64,000 nucleotides of DNA. It comes from Escherichia coli (GTDB lineage: Bacteria; Pseudomonadota; Gammaproteobacteria; Enterobacterales; Enterobacteriaceae). The DNA lies in NCBI RefSeq assembly GCF_030013595.1, contig NZ_CP122769.1; one strand, written 5' to 3'. Made by a program: the position numbers. Shown here one piece after another: positions 27,001-30,000 of this stretch (positions within the stretch are counted from its first letter, which is position 1; every line of letters starts with the position of its first letter).

Positions 27001-30000
27001 ACGCTTCACTTTAAGGCAGGGCTTTTCGGTTGATATGAATTCTTTTTCCGGTTGCTGGACATGGGTTTCATCCTGATAGTTAAAATTGCAGGCTATCAGT
27101 CACCACCACCACCTCCTCCTCCTCCTCCTCCACCGCCACCATCACAACCACCAGCTATGCTATTTTCACCATTACAATCACCTCCGAGGGGGTTCAAATG
27201 GCTGTAAGCGTAAACTGACCGCCGTATGTAGCCATCAGACGAGAATTGGTAACTTAGACGCCCATCTGATATAGACGGACATCTAAGTATGGAATTACAG
27301 GACTGGCGAAAAGAACCTCGTAAAAACTATTCGAATGAATTCAAACTTCGTATGGTGGAACTGGCATCACAACCTGGAGCTTGTGTTGCACAGATTGCAC
27401 GTGAAAATGGCGTCAATGATAATGTTATTTTCAAATGGCTCAGGCTCTGGCAGAACGAAGGGCGTGTTTCGCGGCGTCTTCCGGTAACGACCTCTTCTGA
27501 CACTGGCGTTGAATTATTACCTGTAGAAATAACGCCGGATGAGCAGAAAGAACCTGTGGCGGCCATTGCGCCGTCTTTATCCACTTCCACTCAGACCAGA
27601 GTCAGTGCCAGTTCCTGCAAGGTGGAATTCCGTCACGGTAACATGACGCTGGAAAATCCATCGCCAGAGCTGCTCACGGTGTTGATCCGTGAACTGACCG
27701 GGAGGGGAAGATGATCTCACTCCCATCAGGTACCCGTATCTGGCTCGTTGCCGGCGTTACCGATATGCGTAAATCCTTCAACGGACTGGGAGAACAGGTA
27801 CAACATGTGCTGAATGATAATCCCTTCTCCGGTCACCTGTTTATCTTCCGTGGCCGACGGGGTGACACCGTCAAAATTCTTTGGGCTGATGCTGATGGTC
27901 TGTGCCTGTTCACCAAACGCCTGGAGGAAGGCCAGTTTATCTGGCCTGCGGTACGTGACGGCAAGGTATCCATTACCCGCTCGCAACTGGCAATGCTCCT
28001 CGATAAGCTGGACTGGCGTCAGCCAAAAACATCCAGCCGTAACTCACTGACAATGTTGTAAAAAACTCCTGACCGCATTATAAAAACGGTCATGAGTCAG
28101 AAATACCTCATTCGCATCGCAGAGCTGGAAAGGTTGCTCTCTGAGCAGGCTGAAGCCCTCCGTCAGAAAGACCAGCAACTGAGTCTGGTTGAAGAGACGG
28201 AAGCCTTCCTGCGCTCTGCACTGACACGTGCCGAAGAAAAGATCGAAGAAGATGAACGGGAAATAGAACATCTGCGGGCTCAGATAGAAAAACTGCGCCG
28301 GATGCTGTTCGGTACCCGTTCTGAAAAACTGCGTCGTGAAGTTGAACTGGCTGAGGCTCTGCTGAAACAACGTGAACAGGACAGCGATCGTTACAGTGGG
28401 CGGGAAGACGATCCTCAGGTTCCCCGCCAGTTGCGACAGTCGCGCCATCGTCGTCCGTTACCGGCACACCTTCCCCGTGAAATACACCGCCTGGAGCCAG
28501 AAGAAAGCTGTTGCCCGGAGTGTGGCGGTGAGCTGGATTATCTGGGGGAAGTCAGCGCTGAACAGCTGGAACTGGTGAGCAGTGCCCTGAAAGTGATCCG
28601 CACAGAACGGGTAAAAAAAGCCTGTACAAAATGTGACTGTATTGTTGAAGCACCGGCGCCGTCCCGCCCGATAGAGCGTGGTATCGCGGGCCCCGGATTA
28701 CTTGCCCGCGTGTTAACGGGAAAATACTGCGAACATCTGCCACTGTATCGTCAGAGTGAAATCTTTGCCCGCCAGGGTGTCGAACTGAGCCGGGCCTTAC
28801 TCTCCAACTGGGTTGACGCGTGCTGCCAGTTAATGACACCGGTGAATGATGCCCTGTACCGTTATGTAATGAACACCCGCAAGGTTCACACTGATGACAC
28901 ACCGGTAAAGGTACTGGCACCGGGTCAGAAAAAGGCGAAAACAGGGCGTATCTGGACGTATGTCCGGGATGATCGCAATGTGGGTTCGTCATCTCCTCCA
29001 GCGGTCTGGTTCGCGTACTCGCCGAACCGGCAGGGGAAACACCCGGAGCAACACCTCCGCCCCTTCCGGGGTATCCTGCAGGCGGATGCGTTCACAGGTT
29101 ACGACAGGTTGTTCAGTGCAGAACGTGAAGGTGGTGCACTGACAGAAGTTGCGTGCTGGGCCCATGCCCGGCGAAAAATCCACGATGTATACATCAGCAG
29201 CAAAAGTGCGACGGCAGAAGAAGCCCTGAAGCGAATCAGTGAACTGTACGCCATCGAGGATGAAATACGGGGATTACCGGAGTCAGAGCGTCTTGCCGTC
29301 AGGCAGCAGCGAAGCAAAGTGTTACTGACGTCGCTGCATGAATGGATGGTGGAGAAGAATGGTACGCTGTCGAAAAAATCCAGACTGGGCGAAGCGTTCA
29401 GCTATGTACTGAATCAGTGGGATGCCCTCTGTTATTACAGTGATGACGGTCTGGCGGAGGCGGATAATAATGCTGCGGAAAGAGCGCTTCGTGCAGTCTG
29501 TCTCGGAAAGAAAAACTTTATGTTCTTTGGCAGCGATCACGGCGGCGAGCGTGGAGCACTGTTGTACGGGCTGATCGGCACCTGCCGTCTGAACGGTATC
29601 GATCCGGAAGCGTATCTGCGCCATATCCTGAGCGTACTGCCGGAATGGCCTTCCAACCGAGTTGATGAACTCCTGCCATGGAACGTAGTACTCACCAATA
29701 AATAAGCGTCAATACGGTGCTCCGTTGACGCTTACAAATGGCTGCTCCCCTGTAGATGGTGTCCTTGCCAGATCGAACCCGAACCAGCGCCTCCTGAGCG
29801 TCTTTGCTTGCCCTGAGGCAATTGTGCAGGCTCACCAGCACCGGCGGTCCCAAAAATGTCCCGGGCAATTTTATAAAGAAGGTAAAAAGGTACGCCCAGC
29901 ATCATAAAAAAGATTACTGAAAATATTACACGTTCCATTGATGATCTCCTGTCTTGTGAGAGACCAGTTATATCAGGGTGATTCAGTATTTCCGTTTAGA

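What the first reader, a model, noticed from the sequence alone, without database searches (positions are those of the whole stretch)
27196..29743. IS66-family element with intact 8-bp target duplication, inserted in a spacer/small ORF
The imperfect inverted repeats (GTAAGCGT… at 27204 and …CGCTTAC at 29735) are flanked by the direct repeat AAATGGCT on both sides, indicating simple transposition without later rearrangement. The insertion clips the last 14 codons of a possible small minus-strand ORF (29744-29938) and separates palindrome copy 8 from genes further right.
Basis: seen in the sequence. Interest (0 to 1): 0.3.

Follow-up and report, generated by a model that had tools for sequence, protein, structure and literature searches.

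The report
Recent ISEc23 insertion in IncHI2 plasmid
This is an ordinary, intact copy of the well-known jumping gene ISEc23 (IS66 family) that recently landed in a small gene of unknown function on an IncHI2 resistance-type plasmid; it is already annotated in public records.

Summary
Window 27204-29735 is a complete 2,532-bp IS66-family insertion sequence, 100% identical to many copies that RefSeq annotates as ISEc23. It has 24-nt imperfect terminal inverted repeats (20/24), the three genes tnpA, tnpB and tnpC, and a perfect 8-bp duplication AAATGGCT on both sides. Removing the element and one repeat copy in silico gives a 705-bp sequence found at 100% identity in many large conjugative plasmids; the seven examined are IncHI2. 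In all, 938 records hold that site uninterrupted. The occupied site occurs in only two near-identical Salmonella plasmids, which also match the window at 100% over 22 kb. No complete E. coli genome has this junction. One detail is wrong. The target is not a spacer or a 65-codon ORF losing 14 codons. It is a conserved, annotated 100-aa hypothetical gene (WP_000442694.1), cut after codon 68, so it loses 32 codons including a poly-glycine tail. The nearby palindrome AAAGTWACTTT is real but probably serves the gene to its left, so splitting it from genes to the right is unlikely to matter. Nothing here is new. Interest is low.

The parts
27196..27203 (.). Left copy of the 8-bp target-site duplication AAATGGCT
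   Evidence: Only one copy is present in empty-site plasmids.
27204..29735 (+). Complete ISEc23 (IS66 family), 2,532 bp, 53% GC against 46% for the window
   Evidence: 100% identity over positions 1-2532 to many plasmid copies annotated as ISEc23; length and GC.
27204..27227 (+). Left terminal inverted repeat, GTAAGCGTAAACTGACCGCCGTAT
   Evidence: (I1), and (20/24 match to the right end).
27289..27714 (+). tnpA, 141 aa, helix-turn-helix accessory protein
   Evidence: PF01527, E=5e-12. NF047595, 83 bits against a cut-off of 74. Annotated WP_000422741.1 in the identical locus.
27711..28061 (+). tnpB, 116 aa, IS66 accessory protein. Its ATG overlaps the tnpA stop (ATGA).
   Evidence: PF05717, E=1e-36. 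NF033819, 120.9 bits against a cut-off of 50. One search shows the ATGA overlap.
28092..29705 (+). tnpC, 537 aa, DDE transposase with leucine-zipper, zinc-finger, DDE and C-terminal domains
   Evidence: PF13007, PF13005, PF03050 (E=9e-98, profile positions 1-283 of 284) and PF13817. NF033517, 452 bits against a cut-off of 180.
29712..29735 (-). Right terminal inverted repeat. Its reverse complement reads GTAAGCGTCAACGGAGCACCGTAT.
29736..29743 (.). Right copy of the 8-bp target-site duplication AAATGGCT
29732..29938 (-). Truncated 5' part of the interrupted gene: 68 codons, then a TAA stop supplied by the IS terminus (...CAT TTG TAA)
   Evidence: 68-aa ORF; annotated WP_272815988.1 in the identical record.
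27096..27203 (-). Displaced 3' part of the interrupted gene: codons 69-100 (NPLGGDCNGENSIAGGCDGGGGGGGGGGGGGD) plus the stop, preceded by the duplicated SHL codons
   Evidence: translation. (rebuilt 100-aa ORF); the intact 303-nt CDS WP_000442694.1 in an empty-site plasmid.

Best explanation
An autonomous copy of ISEc23 (IS66 family) transposed, recently and once, into a 100-aa hypothetical gene on an IncHI2 conjugative plasmid. Shown: the element is complete, with both inverted repeats and intact tnpA, tnpB and tnpC. It is flanked by a perfect 8-bp duplication. The uninterrupted target exists in many related plasmids. Only one plasmid lineage carries the insertion. Inferred from what is known of DDE transposases and the IS66 family: the TnpC transposase, helped by TnpA and TnpB, bound the GTAAGCG... 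termini and joined them to target cuts staggered by 8 bp, and repair of the gaps produced the AAATGGCT repeats. The result is a truncated 68-aa product that lacks the cysteine- and glycine-rich tail. There may also be a polar effect on the minus-strand genes downstream of the insertion. The donor copy cannot be identified. An identical ISEc23 sits on the co-resident IncF plasmid of the same strain and is one candidate.
For: Identity to ISEc23: 100% over 2,532 bp, with 2,162 plasmid records covering at least 80% of the element. Protein families. Duplication and inverted repeats. Empty site at 100% over 705 bp, with 938 records holding it in one piece; it is annotated as one 303-nt CDS, WP_000442694.1. 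The occupied site occurs only in NZ_CP117034.1 and NZ_OY754830.1. These match the window at 100% over 22 kb. No complete E. coli genome has the left junction in one piece; the single hit above 80% coverage is a different IS about 460 bp away. All 12 independent complete IS66-family copies examined have perfect 8-bp duplications of unrelated sequence, and the same TnpC allele WP_000080195.1 is annotated at several of those sites. That fits a currently active element. An 8-bp duplication is the reported rule for IS66 (PMC6778807, citing Machida et al. 1984). Co-resident identical copy.
Against: Nothing contradicts this reading. The limits are as follows. Transposition activity was not tested. 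'Recent' is relative: it rests on zero divergence and a narrow distribution, with no dating. The two occupied records are probably the same clone, and probably the source of the window, so they do not show independent occurrence. The requirement for all three ORFs (Han et al. 2001, IS679) comes from my own knowledge, because that paper was not held.
Confidence: 0.97

Rival explanations
1. The IS is old, or sits at a rearrangement junction: homologous recombination between two ISEc23 copies, or IS-mediated deletion or inversion, joined unrelated DNA at its two ends.
For: ISEc23 is abundant: 3,430 plasmid records and 2,921 of 5,426 E. coli genomes. Recombination between copies is well documented for IS66 (PMC6778807).
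Against: The flanks carry the same 8-mer, and joining them with one copy reproduces a sequence found at 100% identity in many plasmids. A recombinant junction would have different 8-mers and non-contiguous flanks. The window holds only one copy of the element.
Confidence: 0.01
2. The insertion was sequence-directed: ISEc23 prefers a motif like (G)TTC|AAATGGCT, which also occurs in its own tnpA and in those of related elements.
For: The 11-mer TTCAAATGGCT occurs at the target (27193-27203) and inside ISEc23 tnpA (27430-27440) (D4). In E. coli CP067426 an ISEc23 sits inside another IS66-family tnpA at that same motif, offset by 1 bp, with duplication CAAATGGC. Several other sites have TTC just 5' of the duplication.
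Against: Those resembling sites were picked from more than 8,000 places by ranking on similarity to my query, so the sample is biased. In the sites not chosen that way, the duplications are unrelated (CGTTTCTG, TGATACGG, TTATTTAC, GGAAAAAG), and only 2 of about 8 have TTC upstream. At most this is a weak preference. It would not change what the element is.
Confidence: 0.15
3. The element is a defective or non-autonomous relic that merely looks intact.
For: No activity assay was possible.
Against: All three ORFs are full length and match their family profiles end to end. In the 100%-identical record they are annotated as WP_000422741.1, WP_000624722.1 and WP_000080195.1. Those same three accessions are annotated at other sites that have their own perfect duplications.
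Confidence: 0.03

Closest known systems
ISEc23 (IS66 family; Enterobacteriaceae plasmids and chromosomes)
   Same: 100% nucleotide identity over all 2,532 bp to copies that RefSeq annotates as 'IS66-like element ISEc23 family transposase'. The three genes, the inverted repeats and the 8-bp duplication are the same.
   Different: Nothing except the insertion site.
IS679 / ISEc8 and the prototype IS66 of Agrobacterium Ti plasmids
   Same: tnpA-tnpB-tnpC organisation, an ATGA overlap between tnpA and tnpB, termini starting GTAAGCG, and an 8-bp duplication. The 8-bp rule is cited in PMC6778807. The rest is from my own knowledge of Han et al. 2001 and Gourbeyre et al. 2010.
   Different: These are different elements of the same family with divergent sequence. 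No comparison was run here.
Unnamed 2,526-bp IS66-family relative (TnpC WP_020833632.1) in pGD27-70 and pPEC408_1
   Same: About 93% identical overall in the alignment that includes the shared flanks. Same gene organisation and 8-bp duplication. It has inserted independently within 135 bp and within about 450 bp of this site in other IncHI2 plasmids.
   Different: It is 6 bp shorter, has 1 to 3 mismatches in the inverted repeats, and its TnpA has 139 aa rather than 141.

Membership tests
IS66 family | Three consecutive genes tnpA (HTH), tnpB and tnpC on one strand | tested here: met
   (ORFs 27289-27714, 27711-28061 and 28092-29705). (family matches).
IS66 family | TnpC is a DDE transposase of the IS66 type, with zinc-finger and leucine-zipper N-terminal regions | tested here: met
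   PF03050 at E=9e-98 covering profile positions 1-283 of 284, plus PF13005, PF13007 and PF13817. NF033517 at 452 bits against a cut-off of 180. The individual D, D and E residues were not inspected.
IS66 family | IS66-type TnpB accessory protein, unrelated to the IS200/IS605 TnpB | tested here: met
   PF05717 at E=1e-36. NF033819 at 120.9 bits against a cut-off of 50.
IS66 family | Imperfect terminal inverted repeats of about 20-30 bp beginning GTAAGCG | tested here: met
   (I1, 25 nt at 84%). (20/24). That this terminus is typical of the family is from my own knowledge.
IS66 family | 8-bp target-site duplication | tested here: met
   here; 12 of 12 independent copies. The rule is cited in PMC6778807.
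IS66 family | All three gene products needed for transposition; activity of this copy | not testable with these tools
   This needs a transposition assay. The literature basis (Han et al. 2001) was not held.
ISEc23 (same IS, by near-identity of the DNA) | Near-identical nucleotide sequence over the full length to ISEc23 | tested here: met
   100% over 2,532 bp to many records whose transposase NCBI's annotation names ISEc23. The ISfinder reference entry itself was not available for comparison.

The most novel reading that the evidence does not exclude
The roughly 6-kb block of small hypothetical minus-strand genes in the IncHI2 backbone (window about 25.8-31.9 kb) may be a preferred landing zone for IS66-family elements. 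At least five independent insertions of two different IS66 members lie there in different plasmids, all in the same orientation as this one, and a sixth lies nearby in the opposite orientation. This could be coupled to a weak TTC-N8 target preference that also leads these elements to insert into each other's tnpA.
Probability: 0.15. Interest if true: 0.25.

Novelty: already known. Interest (0 to 1): 0.06.

Why it matters
It matters little. The insertion is a useful lineage marker for one Salmonella IncHI2 plasmid clone: an exact junction that can be tracked by PCR or in sequence reads. It also shows that ISEc23 is currently mobile in that host background. It inactivates a conserved IncHI2 gene of unknown function, which suggests the full-length product is not needed for plasmid maintenance in that strain. 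No open question becomes testable because of it.

Tried and rejected
A k-mer count did: it is the 11-mer AAAGTWACTTT.
That is too few for a target-site logo.
- The idea of a specific target motif (TTCAAATGGCT) came from flank extensions. It was downgraded after one search showed unrelated duplications at sites not selected by similarity.
- Pfam (E up to 1) and NCBIfam gave no family for the interrupted 100-aa protein; Pfam also gave none for its two neighbours.
- The resemblance of its glycine run to microcin B17-type precursors was considered and dropped. It comes from memory only, and no maturation genes are annotated among its neighbours.
- Han et al. 2001 (PMC95320) could not be read.
- The large protein-homology, structure-prediction and metagenome tools were not used, because the answer did not depend on them.

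Full report
**Observation.** AAATGGCT occupies 27196-27203 and 29736-29743. Between the two copies lies a 2,532-bp segment that starts GTAAGCGTAAAC... and ends ...GTTGACGCTTAC. The terminal pair is the longest inverted repeat found in the region: 25 nt at 84% by the tool (I1), or 20 of 24 over the element proper by my count. The probability that two given 8-mers are identical is 4^-8, about 1.5e-5. The natural empty site described below makes chance irrelevant in any case.

**What it is.** The segment carries three + strand ORFs.
- tnpA, 27289-27714, 141 aa: PF01527 HTH_Tnp_1; NF047595 at 83 bits against a cut-off of 74.
- tnpB, 27711-28061, 116 aa: PF05717 TnpB_IS66 at E=1e-36; NF033819 at 120.9 bits against a cut-off of 50.
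- tnpC, 28092-29705, 537 aa: PF13007, PF13005, PF03050 (E=9e-98, covering the whole profile) and PF13817; NF033517 at 452 bits against a cut-off of 180.

The tnpA stop and the tnpB start overlap as ATGA. The whole 2,532 bp is 100% identical to copies in many plasmids of Escherichia, Salmonella and E. albertii whose transposase RefSeq names 'IS66-like element ISEc23 family transposase'. In all, 3,430 plasmid records have a match, and 2,162 of them cover at least 80% of the element. The left end also occurs in 2,921 of 5,426 complete E. coli genomes, with a median of 2 places per genome. ISEc23 is a named element that appears routinely in plasmid papers (for example pEC958, PMC4398462). At 53% GC it stands out from the 46% GC of the window.

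**Insertion history.** I removed 27204-29743 in silico, which leaves one copy of AAATGGCT, and searched 705 bp spanning the joint. Many large conjugative plasmids of about 210-300 kb match at 100% over the full length. Across the collection, 938 records hold the site in one piece. All seven records I inspected are typed IncHI2A. The occupied site, with both junctions and 100% identity over 3,601 bp, is present in only two records: NZ_CP117034.1 (Salmonella enterica, pig faeces, Poland, 232,119 bp) and NZ_OY754830.1 (232,110 bp). Both also match the window at 100% over a further 22 kb, so they represent the window's own lineage rather than independent occurrences. In the complete E. coli genomes no record has the left junction in one piece. 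The single hit above 80% coverage is a different IS66 element about 460 bp away. Zero divergence from other copies, a perfect duplication, flanks identical to empty-site plasmids, and presence in one lineage out of roughly 940 together point to a recent, single, simple transposition.

**What was hit.** The rebuilt site contains one minus-strand ORF of 100 codons, complement(27096..27203 + 29744..29938). Empty-site plasmids annotate it as the hypothetical protein WP_000442694.1, a 303-nt CDS. The IS entered after codon 68, and the terminus of the element supplies an immediate stop (...CAT TTG TAA). The strain can therefore make only a 68-aa fragment, annotated WP_272815988.1 in the identical record. 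The displaced 32 codons read NPLGGDCNGENSIAGGCDGGGGGGGGGGGGGD. The protein has a hydrophobic N-terminal stretch (VIFSVIFFMMLGVPFYLLY) and matches no Pfam or NCBIfam family. So the target is a conserved backbone gene, not a spacer, and 32 codons are lost, not 14.

**The palindrome.** It occurs 17 times in the window against 0.02 expected, and none of 100 shuffles reached that count. The copy at 26903-26913 is the ninth exact copy by my count. It lies 293 bp left of the IS. In the minus-strand sense it sits 40-115 bp upstream of two sigma-70-like sites (26863-26834 and 26789-26760) that face the 94-aa gene at 26455-26739. By inference, it belongs with the gene on its left. The IS does separate it physically from the genes to the right, but this is unlikely to matter, apart from a possible polar effect if the small minus-strand genes are co-transcribed.

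**Mechanism.** Shown: an intact element, the duplication, and the empty site. Inferred from established knowledge of DDE transposases and of the family: TnpC, with TnpA and TnpB, synapses the GTAAGCG... ends and inserts them at target cuts staggered by 8 bp, and gap repair then creates the duplication. The 8-bp rule for IS66 is cited in PMC6778807. That all three genes are required (IS679, Han et al. 2001) is my own knowledge; the paper was not held. Support for current activity comes from 12 independent complete IS66-family copies that I examined, ten of ISEc23 and two of a 2,526-bp relative. Each has its own perfect 8-bp duplication, and the same three protein accessions recur at several of these sites. 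The strain with the occupied site also carries an identical ISEc23 next to traI on its co-resident IncFIA/FIB/FIC plasmid CP117035.1, with duplication GGAAAAAG. That copy is a possible donor, but identity to many other copies means the donor cannot be assigned.

**Side leads.**
1. Target motif. Hits extended past the IS ends into flanks resembling GTTCAAATGGCT. The same 11-mer lies inside ISEc23 tnpA at 27430-27440 (D4). In E. coli CP067426 an ISEc23 is nested in another IS66-family tnpA at exactly that motif, offset by one base. However, those hits were ranked by similarity to my query. Sites not chosen that way have unrelated duplications. Any preference is therefore weak at best.
2. Local clustering. 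Other IncHI2 plasmids carry independent IS66-family insertions at window-equivalent positions 25831-25838, 27060-27067, 30195-30202 and 31924-31931, all in the + orientation. One more lies near 25.7 kb in the opposite orientation, inferred from the strands. This could be a tolerated-insertion zone or a mild hot zone. I could not normalise it against the rest of the backbone.

**Comparison and verdict.** Every family-defining feature that could be tested is met, and the element is ISEc23 itself. The insertion is already present and annotated in public records. This is an ordinary, already known kind of event. Its only value is as a lineage marker and as a natural knock-out of an uncharacterised IncHI2 gene.

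Noticed in passing
window 485, 2950, 5043, 11955, 15015, 15410, 20271, 22001, 26903, 34492, 34618, 43741, 45948, 48679, 53728, 57940, 63143: The 11-bp palindrome AAAGTWACTTT occurs 17 times against 0.02 expected by chance, and 4 more copies read AAAGTSACTTT. The copy at 26903 lies just upstream of promoter-like sites. It is a candidate operator for an IncHI2-encoded regulator.
   Followed up: partly
window-equivalent 25831-25838, 27060-27067, 27196-27203, 30195-30202, 31924-31931 (loci L005, L003, window, L016, L004): Five independent IS66-family insertions, from ISEc23 and a 2,526-bp relative, lie within 6.1 kb of this IncHI2 backbone block in different plasmids, all in the same orientation. 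A sixth, in CP021177, lies near 25.7 kb in the opposite orientation. This may be a landing zone or simply a dispensable region.
   Followed up: partly
window 27193-27203 and 27430-27440; L010 3500-3520 and 6036-6060: The 11-mer TTCAAATGGCT at the target also occurs inside ISEc23's own tnpA. In E. coli CP067426 an ISEc23 is nested in another IS66-family tnpA at that motif, with duplication CAAATGGC, a 1-bp offset.
   Followed up: partly
window complement(27096..27203 + 29744..29938): The interrupted gene encodes a 100-aa protein with an N-terminal hydrophobic helix and a C-terminal CxxxxxxxxxC-D-G13-D tail. It is conserved in IncHI2 plasmids and matches no Pfam or NCBIfam family. Its (CCN)n tract at 27100-27140 could be prone to slippage; 443 of 977 records match the empty site at only 95-99%.
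   Followed up: no
L006 (Segatella copri MAG), L009 (Bacillota MAG), L007 (Clostridia MAG): Exact ISEc23 termini occur in metagenome-assembled genomes labelled as Bacteroidota or Firmicutes. L006 and L009 share the same left flank. These are most likely mis-binned Enterobacteriaceae contigs.
   Followed up: no
L011 (NZ_CP117035.1 49338-51869): The strain that holds the occupied IncHI2 site also has a 100% identical ISEc23 on its co-resident IncF plasmid, about 740 bp from traI, with duplication GGAAAAAG. It is a possible donor copy.
   Followed up: partly
window 30000-52000: According to the annotation of the identical record, this stretch contains an IS21-family element (istA/istB) among many hypothetical genes. 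Other IncHI2 plasmids match this stretch only in 4-6 pieces, which suggests further IS differences specific to this lineage.
   Followed up: no
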